In this document: positions 4,907 through 64,000 of the stretch, in pieces | Position numbering within the stretch: the stretch's first letter is position 1 | Layout: each line of letters begins with the position of its first letter | Source: an uncultured Candidatus Saccharibacteria bacterium | GTDB lineage: Bacteria; Patescibacteriota; Minisyncoccia; Phycocordibacterales; UBA918 | NCBI GenBank assembly: GCA_964601615.1 | Contig: CAZRNZ010000001.1 | Location: forward strand, 71,658 to 135,657 | Direction of reading: 5' to 3' | Length of the DNA: 64,000 nucleotides | The notes under the pieces: generated by a model | What the model was told of the DNA's origin: nothing | Seen by the model: the letters and a program-made list of their open reading frames with translations, nothing else | Databases searched by the model: none | Position numbers and translations under genes: made by a program

Positions 4907-4940
4907 AAAAGACCTCGTGATATTTCACGAGGTCTTATTT
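4907..4940. terminator. intrinsic terminator hairpin (AGACCTCGTGA...TCACGAGGTCT) flanked by A/T runs; bidirectional between murA (+) and the NUDIX gene (-)
   Basis: 11-bp stem, A-run upstream and T-run downstream. Confidence 0.6.
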
Positions 4941-5419
4941 TATTTAATTTGCCTAACGGCATATCTTGCTATCCGAGCTACTTCTGTATTATCGATTATA
5001 TCGTTTTTGTTTCTCCAAGCATATTCCAATAATTCCTTATTAAGCGAAGGATTTTTATTTGGTATTTGTCCAGTGAAAATAATAACAGTGTCCCTCTTCC
5101 CTTCTGTGTCTGTATAGTAAGTTGCTAGGTCATGTAATTCTGTGATTAGAATATCTAGTTCTTCTCTAACTTCACGAATAGCAGCTTGCTTAGCAGATTC
5201 TTTTTTTGGATTATATCCACCACCAGGAAGATTCCATAGTGATTTGTTGCCATAACTATGTCGCACAATCAGTATCTCGTCATTATTTTCTGGATTAAAT
5301 ATTAAAACCTTTACACCGTAAGTTTTAGGTTTAAATATCTTCCAGTAAGTATGAATCAACAAGAGTAAGGTTTCTCTAAAAAACATTGTTCGTAAAGTAT
5401 ATAATAAATTAAAAGCCAC
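4940..5419 (-). CDS. NUDIX hydrolase
   Basis: Nudix box GGGYNPKKESAKQAAIREVREELD (G-x5-E-x7-REVxEE). Confidence 0.75.
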   Translation of the reverse strand: MAFNLLYTLRTMFFRETLLLLIHTYWKIFKPKTYGVKVLIFNPENNDEILIVRHSYGNKSLWNLPGGGYNPKKESAKQAAIREVREELDILITELHDLATYYTDTEGKRDTVIIFTGQIPNKNPSLNKELLEYAWRNKNDIIDNTEVARIARYAVRQIK

Positions 5420-58555: not shown

Positions 58556-59248
58556 TTACCATCCCTTTTCCTCAATCGCATTTTCAGCAGCATCTTGTTC
58601 CGCTTCTTGCTTTGATCTTCCTTTACCGTCAGCAATCTTTTCATTCTTAAGAAAAACGCCAATCGTAAAAACTCTGTCGTGATCAGGTCCTTCTTGAGAG
58701 ATTAATTCATAAGAAGGAGTAACTGAAACCTTGTCTTGAGCTAATTCCTGAAAACGGCTTTTTGGATCTTGCCAAAGTTTTTTCTCAACAATTTTTTCAG
58801 TTTTATTGAAAAGTTGATTTGCAATAAAACCTTTTGCTGCCTCATAACCTTGGTCAATATAAATGGCGCCAATACAAGCCTCAAAAGCGTTGGCAAGAAT
58901 GTATTGCCTTGCTCGTCCAGTATCCTTGGCTTCACCTTTGGACATCAACATAAAATCATTGAGTCCAATTTTGGTGGCAGCATCAGATAAAGAAACTGTA
59001 TTTACCAGCGCTGCTCTAATAGCAGTAAGTTCTCCTTCTGGTTTTTCTGGGTATTTACTAAACAAGAAATCAGTAGCAACTAACTCCAAAACAGCATCGC
59101 CCAAAAACTCCAATCTTTCATTGTGTTCTTGGGTAGCTTCTCTGTGTTCATTCAAATAAGAACGATGTGTTACTGCAGACAATAAATGATTCTGATCACC
59201 AAAAGTAACACCAAGGATTTTTTCTAATCTGGGTAGATTTGTATCCAT
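58556..59248 (-). CDS. rnc: ribonuclease III
   Basis: Signature ERLEFLGDAVLELV plus a C-terminal dsRBD. Confidence 0.9.
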   Translation of the reverse strand: MDTNLPRLEKILGVTFGDQNHLLSAVTHRSYLNEHREATQEHNERLEFLGDAVLELVATDFLFSKYPEKPEGELTAIRAALVNTVSLSDAATKIGLNDFMLMSKGEAKDTGRARQYILANAFEACIGAIYIDQGYEAAKGFIANQLFNKTEKIVEKKLWQDPKSRFQELAQDKVSVTPSYELISQEGPDHDRVFTIGVFLKNEKIADGKGRSKQEAEQDAAENAIEEKGW

Positions 59249-59329
59249 AAGTTTAAATTTAATAGGTCAAAATCCGAAATCATAAATAAAAATCGGTGCT
59301 TTTGATTTATGATCTTGGATTTTCTGATT

Positions 59330-60253
59330 TTAAGTATCTTTAGCTACGAGCATTGTAACTGCTTTTGTAACTATCGGCAGTATATCCTCATAGAAGTTCA
59401 GGTCAAGTATTTCGGTGATTTTGAACCACTTTGCATCATCTAAACCTCCCTTTTTTTCCATAGAAAGTTCAGAATAATCAGATTTTGCCAGGAAATAGTT
59501 GACCTGCTTGCGATGTTTGCCAATCTCTGGTTTGTTGGCTACATACTCATTCGAACCAAGTTCAGATTCAATTGTGATATCTAAACCAGTCTCTTCTCTG
59601 AGCGCTCTTTTTGCACCTTCTTCCAAAGTTTCTGTTTCTGCAACCTTACTTTTAGACAGAGTCCAGTGACCAAAAATATCATGCACCAAGGCTAAGTAAA
59701 TGGATCCTTCATGAATTGTGTAAACTACAGCACCAGACATGCGAACTATAGGCATTTTTTCAAATGGCAAATCCTTTCTTTTTTTGGTTATTTCTTCCTT
59801 TCCTGGTTCACCAATTTCTTTATAAACAGCACCTAATACACCGTTCACAAAACGACCAGAATTTTCGCCACCAAATTGCTTAGCGAGTTCAATTGCTTCA
59901 TTGATAGCTACTTTGGCTGGAACTTCTTTTCGATCTGAGAAAAGAAGTTCATAAAGTCCGAGTCGAAGAATATTTCTATCAACTGGAGAGATTCTATCGA
60001 TAGGCCACTCTGGAGCGGCTTTTTCGATTACTAGGTCAAGTTCTTTTTGTTTCTGCAGGACACCATCTAAAACCTTTTCCATAAAAGGCAGGTCGCTTTT
60101 GTTTTTTGCGAATTCTTCAACGTTACGAGAAAGAACCTCCAGGGACTCGTTTTTGTCGATTCCACTTTGATCCCATTCGAAAAGTGTTTGAAGAATTATT
60201 GATCTTGAAAGGTGCCTGTTTGCCATTTTTGAACTTATTATCCTAAACTTCAA
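59330..60253 (-). CDS. nusB: NusB (transcription antitermination) domain fused in-frame to a C-terminal NUDIX hydrolase domain
   Basis: N-terminal half ...LRLGLYELLFSDRKEVPAKVAINEAIELAKQFGGENSGRFVNGVL (KVAINEAIELAK identical to E. coli NusB). C-terminal half has the Nudix box AETETLEEGAKRALREETGL. Single 307-codon ORF. Confidence 0.75.
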   Translation of the reverse strand: MKFRIISSKMANRHLSRSIILQTLFEWDQSGIDKNESLEVLSRNVEEFAKNKSDLPFMEKVLDGVLQKQKELDLVIEKAAPEWPIDRISPVDRNILRLGLYELLFSDRKEVPAKVAINEAIELAKQFGGENSGRFVNGVLGAVYKEIGEPGKEEITKKRKDLPFEKMPIVRMSGAVVYTIHEGSIYLALVHDIFGHWTLSKSKVAETETLEEGAKRALREETGLDITIESELGSNEYVANKPEIGKHRKQVNYFLAKSDYSELSMEKKGGLDDAKWFKITEILDLNFYEDILPIVTKAVTMLVAKDT

Positions 60254-60306
60254 ATATCATAACATATTAAAATAAACAAAACTCCCCAATTGGGGAGTTT
60301 TGTTAA

Positions 60307-60597
60307 TTATTTGTTATCTTCTTGAACTTTTGATTCTGCTGGAGCTTCAGGTGTCATGTCTGTAACTGGAGCCTTAATAGCATCTTTCTTTTGGCGCATT
60401 CTCTCTGTACGAGCTTCTTTCTTTGCTGCCAAATCAATTACTTGACGACCTTTGTACCAACCACATTCTAGACACATATTGTGCGGACGACGGGTCGCGC
60501 CACAGTTACTACAAACAGCTAAAGCCGGCGCCTTAAGGGCGTGGTGACTTCTTCTGTTCGCGGTGTGAGCGCGTGTATGTCTCATTCGGACTACCAT
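60307..60597 (-). CDS. rpmF: 50S ribosomal protein L32 with a C-terminal extension
   Basis: [53 protein letters not shown]; Cys4 knuckle. The start is at the MVVRMRH Met; the track ORF begins 13 codons upstream. Confidence 0.8.
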
Positions 60598-60678
60598 AAT
60601 GGCGAGTACTATACCAGATTGGCTTTTAAATAGCAACTATTAAGATAAAAGGCCGACATAGAGTCAGCCTTCTTGGGT

Positions 60679-60906
60679 TTATTTTATAGAAACCAGCAAT
60701 TCGTGAAATTTAGAAACAGTCATGTCTCTACCAGCATCTGATTCTTCGATCAAACCCTCGTCTTCAAGTTTATCAAGAGCATCTAATACATCTAGGATGT
60801 CAGTATACTTCCCGGACATAAGAGAATCGACTGGTTTGTTAGAAAAATCATGTTTTGTCACCAAAACTGAGATTGATTTGGTGAATTCCTCTAGATTAAA
60901 GAACAA
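60679..60906 (-). CDS. hypothetical small acidic protein (75 aa)
   Basis: ORF between rnhB and rpmF. No Cys, so not YceD/DUF177-like. Confidence 0.35.
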   Translation of the reverse strand: MFFNLEEFTKSISVLVTKHDFSNKPVDSLMSGKYTDILDVLDALDKLEDEGLIEESDAGRDMTVSKFHELLVSIK

Positions 60907-61555: not shown

Positions 61556-61578
61556 AATTTGTTACAATGTTACCATCT

Positions 61579-64000
61579 ATGAGCGAAAAGAAGTTATCAT
61601 CCGATTTTATTCACCTACATGTCCACTCGCATTACTCACTTCTAAATGCTCTCCCTACCCCAAAAGAGTTGGCAGCTGCAGCTAAAAATGATGGTCAGCA
61701 AGCTCTGGCAATTACTGATAACGGCACGCTTTATGGAGCGATTGATTTTATTAAAGCTTGCGAAGCGCAAGATATAAAACCAATTATTGGAGTAGATGCT
61801 TTCTTGTCGCCTCGAACTCGTTTTGATAAAGATGCAGGAATTGATAAGCCCCGTAGCCGGGTAGTTTTGTTGGCAAAAAATGAAACTGGTTACAAAAACC
61901 TGATTGAGATGGTGACTCGTTCGTACATTGATGGTTTTTATTATCGCCCACGTATTGACCAGGAACTTTTAGAAAAACATCGTGAAGGCCTTATTGTTAT
62001 TGCTCCATCTTTTGCTGGTGAAATTGCTCAAGCTCTAAAAGAAGGAAATACTGAACGCGCTGGTGAGAGGTTAGATTGGTATAAGAGAGTTTTTTGTGAA
62101 GATTTTTATCTAGAAATTACTAATCATCCAGAAATCCTTGATCATAATGAGAATCAAGAAAAAATTAAGAAACTAGCCAAAAAAAATAATGTTCCACTTG
62201 TAGCGGCGCATGATGTTTATTATTTGAAACCAGGAGATGCTATCGCTCGTGAGACGATGATTAAAATTCAGAGTGGTGGAATTGTTGATACTAGTGGCGT
62301 AATGGATGGTGGCGAAGATTTTTCTTTCTTGACTCAAGAAGAAATCAAAAAACGTTTTGCTGATGTGCCAGAAGCTATTTCGAATACTGTAAAGATTGCT
62401 GAAGCTTGTAATGTTGAAATTGTGTTAGGGCAAGATGCTTGGAAGTTCCCTAACTATGTTATCGAAAGTGGTAAAGAGCCAGATGATGAATTACAGGACT
62501 TGGCATACAAGGGTGTTACTTGGCGTGGCATGTCTTTGGATGATAAGGAAACAAAAGAACGTCTAGATTACGAACTTGATGTTATTAGAATGAAAGGTTA
62601 CGCCAAGTATTTCTTGGTGGTAGGAGACTTGCTTCGAGAAGCGCGAGAAAGAGGAATTTTGACGACAATTCGAGGTTCGGTGGCAGGTTCCCTTACTACT
62701 TATGTGTTGGGTATTACTAACGTAGACCCTATTGAGTATAAGTTGCCATTTGAGCGTTTCTTAAACCCAGAACGTCCGTCTGCTCCCGATATCGATATGG
62801 ACTACGCCGATAATCGGCGTGATGAAATTATTGAATATACTAAACAAAAGTACGGTGAGGATAAGGTGGCACAGATTGGTACTTTTGGAACTATGATGGC
62901 GCGTGCTGCTGTGCGTGACGTGGCTCGCGCACTTGGCCATGCTTACACAGTAGGAGATAAAATCGCCAAGCTTATTCCGATGGGTAGTCAGGGATTTCCG
63001 ATGACTATTAAGAAAGCAATGGAGATTGAGCCTGAGCTTGCCAAGCTTTATAAAAGTGAGCCGGAATCTCGTGAAGTTATTGATCTTGCAATGATGATTG
63101 AGGGTCGCGTACGACACCTTGGAGTACATGCTGCTGGTGTAGTGATTTCACCAGAGCCACTTAATCAGTTTGTGCCAGTACAGCCCGACCCGAAGACTGG
63201 AAAACTTATTACGCAATATGAAATGCGTTCTGTTGGTGAAGACGGAGTTGGTCTTTTGAAGTTCGACTTTTTGGGAATTAAAAACCTAGCGATTTTGGCT
63301 GATGCTGTTAAGCGTGTAAAAAAGATTCGTAATATTGATGTGGATATTGAGAATATTCCACTTGACGATAAGAAGACTTTTGAAATGCTTGCTCGTGGTG
63401 AGACTATGGGTCTTTTCCAACTTAACGGTTCAGGAATGACTGCTTTTTTGAAACAGCTAAAACCTTCTACAATTCACGATATTAATGCGATGGTGGCTCT
63501 TTATCGCCCTGGACCGATGGAATCTATTCCGCAGTATATCGAGCGCAAACATAATCCAAGTTTGGTGTCTTATCTCGATCCACGTTTGGAGAATATTTTG
63601 GATCGTTCTTACGGAGTTATTACTTATCAGGACGACGTGATGATGACAGCAATTACGCTGGCTGGTTACTCTTGGCTTGATGCAGACAAGCTCCGTAAAG
63701 CGATGGGTAAAAAAATTCCCGAGGTGATGGAGGCCGAGAAAGATAAGTTGATGAAAGGATTTACAGAATTTGGAAATCTTCCTCCTAATAAGGCAGATCA
63801 ATTATGGAAATTGATCGAGCCTTTTGCAGCGTACGGATTTAACAAGGCTCATGCAGCAAGTTATGGACGTGTAGCATACCAAACTGCGTATATGAAGGCT
63901 AACTTCCCTGTTGAATACATGTCGGCTGTTTTGACTGCTGACTCAGGGGACACAGAAAAGATTTCTGAAATTATCAATGAGTCAAAACGAATGGGGATTG
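61579..64000 (+). CDS. dnaE: DNA polymerase III alpha subunit (5' portion; continues beyond window)
   Basis: Edge-partial, so absent from the ORF track. PHP domain N-terminus (HLHVHSHYSLLNALPTP), then the polymerase core (GVHAAGVVIS, FDFLGIKNL, RPGPME...YQDDVM...FAAYGFNKAHAASY). The antisense track ORFs 62761-63129 and 63457-63801 lie inside it. Confidence 0.9.
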   Translation, partial: MSEKKLSSDFIHLHVHSHYSLLNALPTPKELAAAAKNDGQQALAITDNGTLYGAIDFIKACEAQDIKPIIGVDAFLSPRTRFDKDAGIDKPRSRVVLLAKNETGYKNLIEMVTRSYIDGFYYRPRIDQELLEKHREGLIVIAPSFAGEIAQALKEGNTERAGERLDWYKRVFCEDFYLEITNHPEILDHNENQEKIKKLAKKNNVPLVAAHDVYYLKPGDAIARETMIKIQSGGIVDTSGVMDGGEDFSFLTQEEIKKRFADVPEAISNTVKIAEACNVEIVLGQDAWKFPNYVIESGKEPDDELQDLAYKGVTWRGMSLDDKETKERLDYELDVIRMKGYAKYFLVVGDLLREARERGILTTIRGSVAGSLTTYVLGITNVDPIEYKLPFERFLNPERPSAPDIDMDYADNRRDEIIEYTKQKYGEDKVAQIGTFGTMMARAAVRDVARALGHAYTVGDKIAKLIPMGSQGFPMTIKKAMEIEPELAKLYKSEPESREVIDLAMMIEGRVRHLGVHAAGVVISPEPLNQFVPVQPDPKTGKLITQYEMRSVGEDGVGLLKFDFLGIKNLAILADAVKRVKKIRNIDVDIENIPLDDKKTFEMLARGETMGLFQLNGSGMTAFLKQLKPSTIHDINAMVALYRPGPMESIPQYIERKHNPSLVSYLDPRLENILDRSYGVITYQDDVMMTAITLAGYSWLDADKLRKAMGKKIPEVMEAEKDKLMKGFTEFGNLPPNKADQLWKLIEPFAAYGFNKAHAASYGRVAYQTAYMKANFPVEYMSAVLTADSGDTEKISEIINESKRMGI

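What the first reader, a model, noticed from the sequence alone, without database searches (positions are those of the whole stretch)
59330..60253. NusB antitermination factor fused to a NUDIX hydrolase
A single 307-codon ORF joins a highly conserved NusB domain (KVAINEAIELAK identical to E. coli) to a C-terminal Nudix domain with an intact Nudix box (ETLEEGAKRALREETGL). This would couple rRNA antitermination to nucleotide-derivative hydrolysis, for example (p)ppGpp, Ap4A or NAD-cap removal. The architecture is not described for canonical NusB. A second stand-alone NUDIX gene is at 4940-5419.
Basis: partly seen in the sequence, partly recalled or inferred. Interest (0 to 1): 0.55.

Follow-up and report, generated by a model that had tools for sequence, protein, structure and literature searches.

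The report
NusB fused to degenerate Nudix domain

Summary
The ORF is real and lies on the minus strand at 59330-60253. The likely CDS is 59330-60226 (298 aa). It joins a bona fide NusB domain (TIGR01951 above cutoff, BoxA-stacking Phe kept) to a Nudix-fold domain through a disordered Lys-rich linker.

It is not an assembly artefact. The same one-ORF fusion occurs in at least 80 species-representative Patescibacteria/Paceibacteria genomes, in conserved order rnhB-rpmF-[nusB-nudix]-rnc-smc.

The "intact Nudix box" claim fails. The box reads S-x5-E-x7-R-A-L-R-E-E-T-G-L, so the first Gly and the Glu of "RE" are replaced. RE->RA is the same change as the engineered E58A mutant of human Ap4A hydrolase.

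Only 33 of 81 species-level sequences keep all three REUxEE glutamates, and that Glu position is among the least conserved in the domain. The residues aligning with the P1-phosphate Lys and the adenine-binding residues of Ap4A hydrolases (K192, Y228, Y279, D281) are invariant. The domain is under purifying selection.

Best reading: a NusB with a tethered ApnA-hydrolase-derived nucleotide or RNA-5'-end binding module, weakly catalytic or inactive in this genome. I found no description of it in the searchable literature. It is a new variant of known kinds (NusB; non-catalytic Nudix effectors such as NrtR and CF Im25).

The parts
59330..60226 (-). nusB-nudix CDS (298 aa plus stop). The maximal ORF extends to a TTG at 60253.
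   Evidence: ORF. ATG start inferred from homologues that begin MANRHLSR. 100% identical to P0001.
59807..60226 (-). NusB domain (residues 1-140), all-helical
   Evidence: Pfam PF01029 E 6.6e-37. TIGR01951 132 bits against a cutoff of 88. Foldseek to Aquifex NusB in the NusB-NusE-BoxA complex 3R2C: TM 0.87-0.88, rmsd 1.9 A. F126 aligns with AaF122 (BoxA-U8 stacking), D83 with AaE81, F16 with EcY18/AaY16 (alignment; roles from PMC3177189).
59747..59806 (-). Lys-rich flexible linker (residues 141-160, PGKEEITKKRKDLPFEKMPI)
   Evidence: Translation. pLDDT below 50 for residues 143-149 and pTM 0.58 against mean pLDDT 91.6. Least conserved segment: identity to near homologues 0.67 against 0.86 (NusB) and 0.76 (Nudix); mean entropy 1.65.
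59333..59746 (-). Nudix-fold domain (residues 161-298), ApnA-hydrolase type
   Evidence: Pfam PF00293 E 3.2e-11. Foldseek: Aquifex Ap4A hydrolase 3I7U TM 0.88-0.90; also Rv2985/MutT1, Ndx1, CT771, NUDT2 and C. elegans Ap4A hydrolase. PDB sequence hits.
59582..59650 (-). Degenerate Nudix box SKVAETETLEEGAKRALREETGL (S193 replaces the signature Gly; A208 replaces the Glu of 'RE')
   Evidence: translation. (register against MutT and NUDT2). (state across the family).
60275..60304 (-). Terminator-like hairpin (13-bp stem plus U-run) between rpmF (L32) and nusB-nudix, suggesting nusB-nudix starts its own transcription unit
   Evidence: pattern scan. (MFE -24.4 kcal/mol, z -4.4).
58556..59248 (-). 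rnc (RNase III), the conserved downstream neighbour and probably co-transcribed
   Evidence: Pfam. Present downstream in 77 of 80 species. Median gap to nusB-nudix 26 nt, often overlapping.
60307..60636 (-). rpmF (ribosomal protein L32), the conserved upstream neighbour
   Evidence: Pfam. Upstream in 78 of 80 species.

Best explanation
The gene encodes a genuine NusB, the only one in this window. NusB is the BoxA-RNA/S10-binding subunit of the rRNA antitermination complex. Its C-terminus carries a Nudix-fold domain derived from a diadenosine-polyphosphate (ApnA/NUDT2-type) hydrolase, attached by a flexible Lys-rich tether of about 20 residues.

In this genome the Nudix domain has lost the metal-site Glu of 'RE' (A208) and the signature Gly (S193). 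It keeps the residues that hold the P1 phosphate and the adenine ring in Ap4A hydrolases.

The most likely mechanism is that the domain mainly binds an adenine-nucleotide-polyphosphate moiety rather than efficiently cleaving it. The ligand could be free ApnA/ATP-type nucleotides, or the (p)pp/Np4-type 5' end of the nascent rRNA leader that NusB holds through BoxA. The domain would then act as a sensor or anchor on the antitermination complex. In relatives that keep a canonical box (about 40% of species) the same domain probably still hydrolyses its ligand.

Shown: the architecture, its conservation, the folds, the degenerate box, purifying selection, and which residues are invariant. Inferred: the identity of the ligand, loss or weakness of catalysis, and any effect on antitermination.
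For: (1) Real and conserved. The 120 best homologues all carry both domains. 80 of 80 GTDB species loci carry both domains in one ORF, with synteny rnhB-rpmF-[nusB-nudix]-rnc-smc in 69-78 of 80.

(2) Genuine NusB. TIGR01951 is above its cutoff. The fold matches 3R2C at rmsd 1.9 A. The BoxA-stacking Phe is invariant (F126). No second NusB lies in the window or within 6 kb either side in 80 loci.

(3) Degenerate box. It reads S...RA. RE->RA equals the engineered E58A variant of human Ap4A hydrolase in 4ICK/4IJX and 1XSA-C.

(4) Family pattern. All three REUxEE Glu are kept in only 33 of 81 species. The E53-equivalent position holds E34/K16/V10/A8/I5/G4/S3/N1 and ranks 113th of 136 Nudix positions in conservation. 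E44-, R52- and E56-equivalents relax together with it. Among 50%-identity cluster representatives, 7 of 41 fused proteins are canonical against 16 of 19 short relatives of stand-alone length.

(5) Invariant positions K192, Y228, Y279 and D281 align with HsK42, Y82, F128 and E130. These are the P1-phosphate and adenine-binding residues of Ap4A hydrolases (PMC4734340).

(6) No decay. pN is 0.15-0.21 against saturated pS of 0.77-0.84 in the S/RA clade. Nudix identity outside the box is similar in degenerate (0.62) and canonical (0.65) groups.

(7) The domains fold confidently (pLDDT 91.6) with a disordered linker and pTM 0.58, which fits a tethered module.

(8) Precedents for non-catalytic Nudix effector domains: NrtR (PMC2330246), TRPM2 NUDT9-H (PMC4974056), and CF Im25, which binds but does not hydrolyse Ap4A inside an RNA-processing complex (PMC2425470).
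Against: - No biochemical data exist for any member.
- Three of the four box carboxylates remain (E199, E211, E212). E212 is invariant across the family, which is hard to explain if metal binding were entirely irrelevant.
- S193 and A208 always change together. That could be a compensatory remodelling of the metal site that preserves activity.
- About 40% of species keep a fully canonical box, so catalysis is evidently still selected in many lineages.
- The catalytic base varies among Nudix enzymes (PMC4974056 discussion).
- The role of E58A as 'inactive' rests on the PDB entry titles plus my recollection of the literature, not on a paper read here.
- Ligand identity is inferred only from homology to ApnA hydrolases at about 23-27% identity.
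- The NJ tree used for counting losses is poorly resolved.
Confidence: 0.55

Rival explanations
1. One reading: the Nudix domain is an active pyrophosphohydrolase (ApnA hydrolase, RNA 5' pyrophosphohydrolase or decapping enzyme) delivered to nascent rRNA by NusB. The S193/A208 pair is a tolerated or compensated variant of the metal site.
For: The closest folds are active ApnA hydrolases. NUDT2-type enzymes also act on pppRNA and caps (PMC9283932). E199, E211 and E212 are retained and E212 is invariant. 30-33 of 81 species keep a fully canonical box. S and A co-vary strictly, which is compatible with compensation. The neighbours are RNA-processing genes (rnc, rnhB, rnr).
Against: The missing Glu is the position mutated to Ala in the engineered human Ap4A hydrolase variant used for structures. 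In NrtR and TRPM2, perturbed signatures go with loss of activity (PMC2330246, PMC4974056). The replacements at this position across the family (K, V, I, A, G, S, N) are chemically unrelated and cannot all be compensatory. Other box residues relax together with it.
Confidence: 0.25
2. The Nudix fold is a ligand-independent structural or protein-interaction subunit of the rRNA antitermination complex. It would resemble the enzyme-fold protein SuhB, which E. coli needs to integrate NusB/E into the complex.
For: [quoted passage not shown] The catalytic residues of the fused Nudix domain are dispensable across the family. Purifying selection acts on the rest of the domain.
Against: The invariant residues are the ones that bind phosphate and adenine in Ap4A hydrolases, not an obviously new surface. 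No interdomain or partner interface could be predicted (pTM 0.58). Whether these genomes lack SuhB could not be tested, because only 64 kb was available.
Confidence: 0.12
3. Artefact or decaying remnant: either two genes joined by an assembly or frameshift error, or a Nudix pseudodomain drifting neutrally.
For: One relative (L084) shows NusB and Nudix as two called genes.
Against: The L084 'split' is a single in-frame TAA replacing the conserved Tyr135 codon. 80 of 80 species and 120 of 120 close homologues from independent assemblies are contiguous. pN is far below pS, and 19 positions of the Nudix half are invariant.
Confidence: 0.01

Closest known systems
NusB (transcription antitermination factor; TIGR01951 / PF01029), e.g. 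Aquifex aeolicus NusB in the NusB-NusE-BoxA complex (3R2C) and E. coli NusB
   Same: The N-terminal 140 residues score above the equivalog cutoff. The fold superposes at 1.9 A. KVAINEAIELAK is identical to E. coli. The BoxA-U8-stacking Phe (F126) is invariant.
   Different: It carries a C-terminal domain of about 140 residues on a flexible linker, whereas canonical NusB is a single domain of about 140 aa. It has N122 at the position of the E. coli nusB101 (D118N) substitution.
Nudix ApnA hydrolases (human NUDT2 3U53, Aquifex Ap4A hydrolase 3I7U, Thermus Ndx1, Chlamydia CT771, Mtb Rv2985/MutT1)
   Same: They are the best structural matches (TM up to 0.90). The W-T-x-x-K motif, the P1-phosphate Lys, the adenine-stacking Tyr and Tyr/Phe, and the acidic residue near adenine N6 are conserved as W188, K192, Y228, Y279 and D281.
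   Different: The signature Gly is Ser and the Glu of RE is Ala, the equivalent of the engineered NUDT2 E58A. The loop between the box and the stacking Tyr is 4 residues shorter. The domain is fused to NusB rather than stand-alone.
NrtR-family Nudix-related transcriptional regulators (and Bacteroides AraR)
   Same: The logic is the same: a Nudix-fold effector domain fused to a nucleic-acid-binding regulatory module, in a family that mixes intact and perturbed Nudix signatures. Perturbed NrtR members bind ligand without hydrolysing it (PMC2330246). The NrtR Nudix domain 3GZ8 is a Foldseek hit (E 4e-9).
   Different: The partner domain is an RNA-binding antitermination factor, not a winged-helix DNA binder. 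The Nudix half is of the ApnA-hydrolase type, not the ADP-ribose pyrophosphatase type. The domain order is reversed, with the Nudix domain C-terminal.
CF Im25 / NUDT21 (25-kDa subunit of mammalian cleavage factor Im)
   Same: It is a Nudix-fold protein lacking box glutamates that binds but does not hydrolyse Ap4A/ATP and works inside an RNA-processing complex (PMC2425470).
   Different: It is eukaryotic and acts in 3'-end processing. It lacks two Glu rather than one. Its adenine stacks on a Phe upstream of the box. No close sequence relationship was shown here.
SuhB in the E. coli rrn antitermination complex
   Same: It is an enzyme-fold protein acting as an accessory subunit next to NusB/E on the rRNA leader (PMC6614801).
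   Different: It has a different fold (inositol monophosphatase), is a separate polypeptide, and has no demonstrated nucleotide-sensing role. The analogy is only conceptual.

Membership tests
NusB (TIGR01951 / PF01029) | Profile match above the curated cutoff | tested here: met
   TIGR01951 scores 132.1 bits against a cutoff of 88.35. PF01029 scores 127 bits against 23.1. RsmB models are far below their cutoffs.
NusB (TIGR01951 / PF01029) | All-helical NusB fold | tested here: met
   The AF2 model has seven helices in residues 4-138. Foldseek to 3R2C/3R2D/4EYA gives TM 0.87-0.88 and rmsd 1.8-1.9 A.
NusB (TIGR01951 / PF01029) | BoxA-contact and NusE-interface residues (AaF122 stacking U8; AaE81; EcY18) | tested here: met
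   F126 aligns with AaF122 and is invariant. D83 aligns with AaE81 (conservative change). F16 aligns with EcY18/AaY16 (aromatic). Sources; roles from PMC3177189.
NusB (TIGR01951 / PF01029) | Heterodimer with S10 (NusE), BoxA RNA binding, antitermination activity | not testable with these tools
   Requires biochemistry or genetics. S10 and the rRNA leader are not in the window (one search found no rRNA).
NusB (TIGR01951 / PF01029) | Single-domain architecture of about 130-150 aa | tested here: not met
   298 aa with an extra C-terminal Nudix domain.
Nudix hydrolase superfamily (PF00293) | Nudix alpha/beta/alpha fold | tested here: met
   PF00293 scores 43.8 bits against a cutoff of 21.1. The model has pLDDT above 90 over the domain. 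More than 500 Foldseek hits have E <= 1e-3, led by Nudix enzymes.
Nudix hydrolase superfamily (PF00293) | Nudix box GX5EX7REUXEEXGU | tested here: not met
   The box is S193-x5-E199-x7-R207-A208-L209-R210-E211-E212-T213-G214-L215. Two of the nine signature positions deviate, including a metal-site Glu.
Nudix hydrolase superfamily (PF00293) | Mg2+/Mn2+-dependent pyrophosphohydrolase activity | not testable with these tools
   Needs an enzyme assay.
ApnA (NUDT2-type) hydrolase subfamily | Closest structural and sequence neighbours are ApnA hydrolases | tested here: met
   3I7U gives TM 0.88-0.90. Rv2985, MutT1, Ndx1, CT771, 1KTG and 3U53 are all in the top 40. CT771, Rv2985 and Ndx1 are the top phmmer hits.
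ApnA (NUDT2-type) hydrolase subfamily | P1-phosphate Lys, adenine-stacking Tyr after the box, and a second Tyr/Phe | tested here: met
   K192, Y228 and Y279 (plus D281) align with HsK42, Y82 and F128 (plus E130) and are invariant in 81 species. Roles are from PMC4734340 and PMC2425470.
ApnA (NUDT2-type) hydrolase subfamily | Glu of the 'RE' dipeptide (HsE58) | tested here: not met
   A208 aligns with HsE58. The engineered E58A is in 4ICK/4IJX and 1XSA-C.
NrtR-type non-catalytic Nudix regulators | Perturbed Nudix signature with a retained fold, fused to a nucleic-acid-binding module | tested here: met
   This is a test of 'works like', not of homology.
NrtR-type non-catalytic Nudix regulators | C-terminal winged-helix DNA-binding domain and an ADPR-pyrophosphatase-like Nudix domain | tested here: not met
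   No wHTH domain is present. The partner is NusB, and the best Nudix matches are ApnA hydrolases.

The most novel reading that the evidence does not exclude
A whole class of candidate-phyla bacteria has a nucleotide-gated Nus factor. The tethered pseudo-Nudix domain of NusB would bind Ap4A-type alarmones, or would capture the (p)pp/Np4-capped 5' end of the nascent rRNA leader. Either way, rRNA antitermination, and the RNase III processing encoded by the next gene, would be switched or scaffolded by a nucleotide signal. In canonical-box lineages the signal would be erased by hydrolysis. This would be the first protein receptor linking ApnA or 5'-cap chemistry directly to the antitermination machinery.
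Probability: 0.2. Interest if true: 0.8.

Novelty: new variant of a known kind. Interest (0 to 1): 0.5.

Why it matters
NusB is one of the most uniform small transcription factors in bacteria. Finding that an entire, very large, uncultivated lineage carries it permanently joined to a nucleotide-binding Nudix fold suggests a regulatory input into ribosomal RNA synthesis that model organisms lack.

The evolutionary pattern says what to test. Substrate-binding residues are frozen while catalytic residues were lost repeatedly. That points to binding of ApnA/ATP-like nucleotides or RNA 5' ends, and to its effect on BoxA/S10 binding and antitermination.

It could also give the long-debated alarmone Ap4A, or Np4 RNA caps, a concrete protein target.

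At a practical level, current annotation ('transcription antitermination factor NusB') hides the second domain. Anyone annotating it as an active Nudix hydrolase from the Pfam hit alone would probably be wrong for this genome.

Tried and rejected
- Assembly or frameshift artefact: rejected.
- A natural two-gene 'split' ancestor: the only apparent case (L084) is an in-frame TAA at the conserved Tyr135 codon.
- Stand-alone relatives as clues to function. P0243 sits among acyl-CoA and histidine genes in a non-CPR genome. P0150 sits in a phage or mobile-element context. Neither is informative.
- Taxon names through the listing of cluster members: almost no names were returned.
- The look-up of encoding contigs for the window protein or P0001: not on record. 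One look-up was not sent because the queue was full.
- afdb50 fold search for UniProt examples of the architecture: the library was unavailable.
- Counting independent losses on an NJ tree gave 21-22 changes among 76 taxa. The tree is poorly resolved, so I only claim 'several independent losses', based on the seven chemically different replacements.
- dN/dS: synonymous sites are saturated, so only pN far below pS can be stated.
- A conserved RNA hairpin between nusB-nudix and rnc: strong in the window (z -4.5) but not general (11 of 35 species with z < -2).
- rRNA or boxA in the window: none.
- The 'gene-poor' region at 61.6-64 kb is simply a DNA polymerase III alpha ORF running off the window end.
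- Literature searches for the fusion found nothing relevant.
Full report
**1. The observation**

The window holds a stop-free ORF at 59330..60253 on the minus strand, 307 codons from a TTG. Homologues start MANRHLSR, so the ATG at 60226 is the likely start (298 aa). That product is 100% identical to database protein P0001, from a 310-kb contig.

Pfam places NusB at residues 7-136 (E 6.6e-37) and NUDIX at 183-280 (E 3.2e-11). The NCBIfam equivalog model TIGR01951 'nusB' scores 132.1 bits against a cutoff of 88.35, while RsmB models fall far below theirs. The second Nudix gene at 4940-5419 exists. It has a canonical REVREE and shows no phmmer similarity to the fused Nudix half.

**2. It is not an artefact**

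All 120 best homologues (76-100% identity, from NCBI, JGI, ENA and Logan assemblies) carry both Pfam domains. Where they are named, the name is 'transcription antitermination factor NusB' of Paceibacterota, Parcubacteria or Kaiserbacteria.

It returned 80 full-length matches, all from Patescibacteria/Parcubacteria lineages: Kaiser-, Adler-, Nomura-, Taylor-, Lloydbacteria and others. In 80 of 80 loci both domains lie in one stop-free ORF.

Gene order is conserved as RNase HII - L32 - [NusB-Nudix] - RNase III - (pilins) - SMC. L32 is present in 78 of 80 loci, RNase III in 77, SMC in 70 and RNase HII in 69. No second NusB lies within 6 kb on either side, and none is elsewhere in the window.

The only apparent two-gene form (L084) is an in-frame TAA replacing the conserved Tyr135 codon.

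The median gap from the fusion gene to rnc is 26 nt and the genes often overlap. A strong terminator-like hairpin separates rpmF from nusB-nudix in the window. Together these suggest a nusB-nudix-rnc transcription unit.

**3. The NusB half looks functional**

The AlphaFold2 model (45-sequence alignment, mean pLDDT 91.6) gives the seven-helix NusB fold. It superposes on Aquifex NusB from the NusB-NusE-BoxA complex with TM 0.87-0.88 and rmsd 1.9 A.

I mapped residues through the HMMER alignment, taking the residue roles from PMC3177189:
- F126 aligns with AaF122, which stacks on BoxA-U8 and is essential in E. coli. F126 is invariant in the family.
- D83 aligns with AaE81.
- F16 aligns with EcY18, at the NusE interface.

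**4. The Nudix box is not intact**

With E. coli MutT and human NUDT2 as rulers, residues 193-215 read S-KVAET-E-TLEEGAK-R-A-L-R-E-E-T-G-L. The register agrees with the model's strand 192-194, loop, and helix 201-213. The signature Gly is therefore Ser (S193). The Glu of 'RE' (MutT E53, NUDT2 E58) is Ala (A208).

To test what this change means, I searched the PDB with the NUDT2 sequence. The wild type (3U53) reads ALRETQEEAGI. The 'E58A mutant' entries 4ICK/4IJX and the NMR entries 1XSA-C read ALRATQEEAGI. The window protein thus carries naturally the substitution that was engineered into the closest human homologue.

**5. The family pattern**

*Close homologues.* Among the 120 close homologues, about 82 have the S/RA pair and about 26 the canonical G/RE. 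The two changes are strictly coupled.

*Species level.* Among 80 species-level sequences plus the window, only 33 keep all three REUxEE glutamates. The E53-equivalent position holds E34, K16, V10, A8, I5, G4, S3 and N1. Seven chemically unrelated replacements imply several independent losses. A poorly resolved NJ tree gives about 21 changes.

*Conservation rank.* That position ranks 113th of 136 Nudix positions, and the E44-equivalent ranks 86th. In lineages that lost E53, the equivalents of E44, R52 and E56, plus E196 and K/H194, relax as well.

*Exhaustive search.* A search with the Nudix half alone found a compact family of 138 clusters at E <= 1e-10. Among the cluster representatives, 7 of 41 full-length fused proteins have a canonical box, against 16 of 19 short relatives of stand-alone length.

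*Invariant positions.* Nineteen positions of the Nudix half are invariant across the 81 sequences: G165, A179, D183, F185, W188, T189, L190, K192, E212, Y228, P233, G236, L246, G261, L262, W267, F268, Y279 and D281.

*No general decay.* Identity outside the box is 0.62 in the degenerate group and 0.65 in the canonical group. Within the S/RA clade pN is 0.15-0.21 against saturated pS of 0.77-0.84.

**6. What kind of Nudix domain it is**

The best solved folds are ApnA hydrolases. They are Aquifex Ap4A hydrolase 3I7U (TM 0.88-0.90), M. tuberculosis Rv2985 and M. smegmatis MutT1, Thermus Ndx1 (an Ap6A hydrolase), Chlamydia CT771, and C. elegans and human Ap4A hydrolases. The non-catalytic NrtR Nudix domain (3GZ8) also appears. 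Sequence searches agree.

Aligned to NUDT2, the correspondences are:

| Window residue | NUDT2 residue |
|---|---|
| W188 | W38 |
| K192 | K42 |
| E199 | E49 |
| R207 | R57 |
| A208 | E58 |
| E211 / E212 | E61 / E62 |
| Y228 | Y82 |
| Y244 | Y93 |
| W267 | W116 |
| Y279 | F128 |
| D281 | E130 |

According to PMC4734340, HsK42 and HsY82 hold the P1 phosphate. The adenine ring stacks between the conserved loop-5 Tyr (Y82) and a Tyr/Phe (F128). E130 contacts the adenine amino group. PMC2425470 notes that the stacking Tyr/Phe after the box is typical of Nudix Ap4A hydrolases.

So the family-invariant residues of the fused domain are the substrate-binding ones, while the catalytic ones are dispensable.

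**7. Mechanism**

*Shown:*
- A genuine NusB with a confidently folded Nudix domain on a disordered, Lys-rich linker (pLDDT below 50 at residues 143-149; pTM 0.58, so no fixed interface is predicted).
- A degenerate metal site in this genome.
- Frozen nucleotide-binding residues.
- Purifying selection.
- A conserved neighbourhood of rRNA and RNA-processing genes.

*Inferred:* the domain binds an adenine-nucleotide polyphosphate. This could be free ApnA or ATP, or the triphosphate or Np4-type 5' end of the nascent rRNA leader that NusB/S10 hold through BoxA. The domain would act as a sensor or anchor on the antitermination complex. Hydrolysis would be retained only where the box is canonical.

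Three sets of precedents make this plausible:
- NrtR regulators mix intact and perturbed signatures, and the perturbed ones bind ADP-ribose without hydrolysis (PMC2330246). The human TRPM2 NUDT9-H domain binds but does not cleave ADPR because of its Nudix box (PMC4974056). CF Im25 binds but does not hydrolyse Ap4A inside an RNA-processing complex (PMC2425470).
- NUDT2-type enzymes also recognise pppRNA and caps (PMC9283932). NpnN caps exist on bacterial RNA (abstracts of PMC7044304, PMC8833179 and PMC13010140).
- E. coli needs an enzyme-fold protein, SuhB, to integrate NusB/E into the rrn complex (PMC6614801).

I put 0.55 on the binding-module reading for this protein, 0.25 on a still-relevant hydrolase, 0.12 on a ligand-independent scaffold, and about 0.01 on artefact or decay.

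The main caveats are these. E212 is invariant and three carboxylates remain. The S193/A208 pair may be compensatory. About 40% of species keep a canonical box. No biochemistry exists for any member.

**8. Comparison with what is known, and novelty**

Membership in NusB is met on profile, fold and key residues. The protein departs only in architecture.

Membership in the Nudix superfamily is met for the fold but not for the defining box. Within the ApnA-hydrolase subfamily the binding features are met and the catalytic Glu is not.

It 'works like' NrtR or CF Im25, but it is not a member of either family.

Three full-text searches (NusB+Nudix; NusB+candidate phyla radiation; combinations with Parcubacteria/Patescibacteria) found no description of the fusion. 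Databases hold hundreds of copies named plainly 'NusB'.

I rate it a new variant of known kinds, with interest 0.5. The architecture and the pseudoenzyme-like evolutionary pattern would moderately surprise a transcription specialist, and they suggest clear experiments. The functional claim remains inference.

**9. Wider distribution**

More distant fused forms exist outside the conserved synteny:
- P0228 lies next to nadC- and nicotinamidase-like genes.
- P0217 has a 330-aa N-terminal extension and lies next to NB-ARC and HEPN genes.

The same Nudix subfamily also occurs fused to Sigma70_r4 + DnaA_C helix-turn-helix domains, with a degenerate RK box (P0209). This again points to use as an effector domain on nucleic-acid-binding proteins.

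Noticed in passing
window 59269-59323 (minus strand), between nusB-nudix and rnc: A long A/U-rich hairpin of about 22 pairs in the rnc leader (MFE -17.8 kcal/mol, z -4.5). This is about the size of an RNase III substrate, so it could be an autoregulatory site or a terminator. It is not general: only 11 of 35 species with a foldable gap have z < -2.
   Followed up: partly
window 60275-60304: A perfect 13-bp-stem palindrome AACAAAACTCCCCAATTGGGGAGTTTTGTT followed by a U-run, between rpmF and nusB-nudix. It looks like an intrinsic terminator.
   Followed up: partly
window 59861-59863 (residue N122 of the fusion protein): The NusB half has Asn at the position of E. coli D118. The nusB101 mutation D118N raises affinity for lambda BoxA, and Aquifex has Lys there contacting BoxA-G9.
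   Followed up: no
window 4940-5419 (minus): The stand-alone Nudix gene has canonical G-x5-E-x7-REVREE, but the final signature Gly is Asp (GGGYNPKKESAKQAAIREVREELDI). It has no specific NCBIfam assignment, and phmmer finds no similarity to the fused Nudix half. It could supply the genome's catalytic Nudix activity.
   Followed up: partly
window 61558-64000 (plus): This apparently ORF-poor region is one long ORF of at least 814 aa running off the window end. It starts with a PHP-type motif (HLHVHSHYSLL), so it is probably DNA polymerase III alpha, judged by the motif only. It is missing from ORF lists only because it is truncated.
   Followed up: yes
L083 3605-5338 (protein P0217, 577 aa): A variant with an unassigned N-terminal extension of about 315 aa, then NusB-like and NUDIX domains. 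It lies next to an NB-ARC ATPase, a DDE transposase and a HEPN_Swt1 gene, a defence-like context unrelated to the rpmF/rnc synteny.
   Followed up: partly
L086 5001-5948 (protein P0228, 315 aa): A distant NusB-Nudix fusion (about 29% identity in the Nudix half, box RA..KE). It lies next to QRPTase (nadC), an isochorismatase/nicotinamidase-like gene, PRA-CH and a large TPR protein. There is no rpmF/rnc synteny, and the genome appears to be non-CPR.
   Followed up: no
protein P0209 (379 aa): The same Nudix subfamily fused to Sigma70_r4 + Bac_DnaA_C helix-turn-helix domains, again with a degenerate box (LRKTREE). This is an NrtR-like DNA-binding architecture. P0156 shows an Endonuclease V fragment plus NUDIX.
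   Followed up: no
L084 941-943: An in-frame TAA replaces the conserved Tyr135 codon (GAV*KE). Gene callers therefore split NusB and Nudix into two genes in this 2.4-kb contig. It is either a nonsense mutation or a read error.
   Followed up: yes
window 60679-60906 (minus): A 75-aa ORF between rnhB and rpmF has no NCBIfam match. It was not examined further.
   Followed up: no
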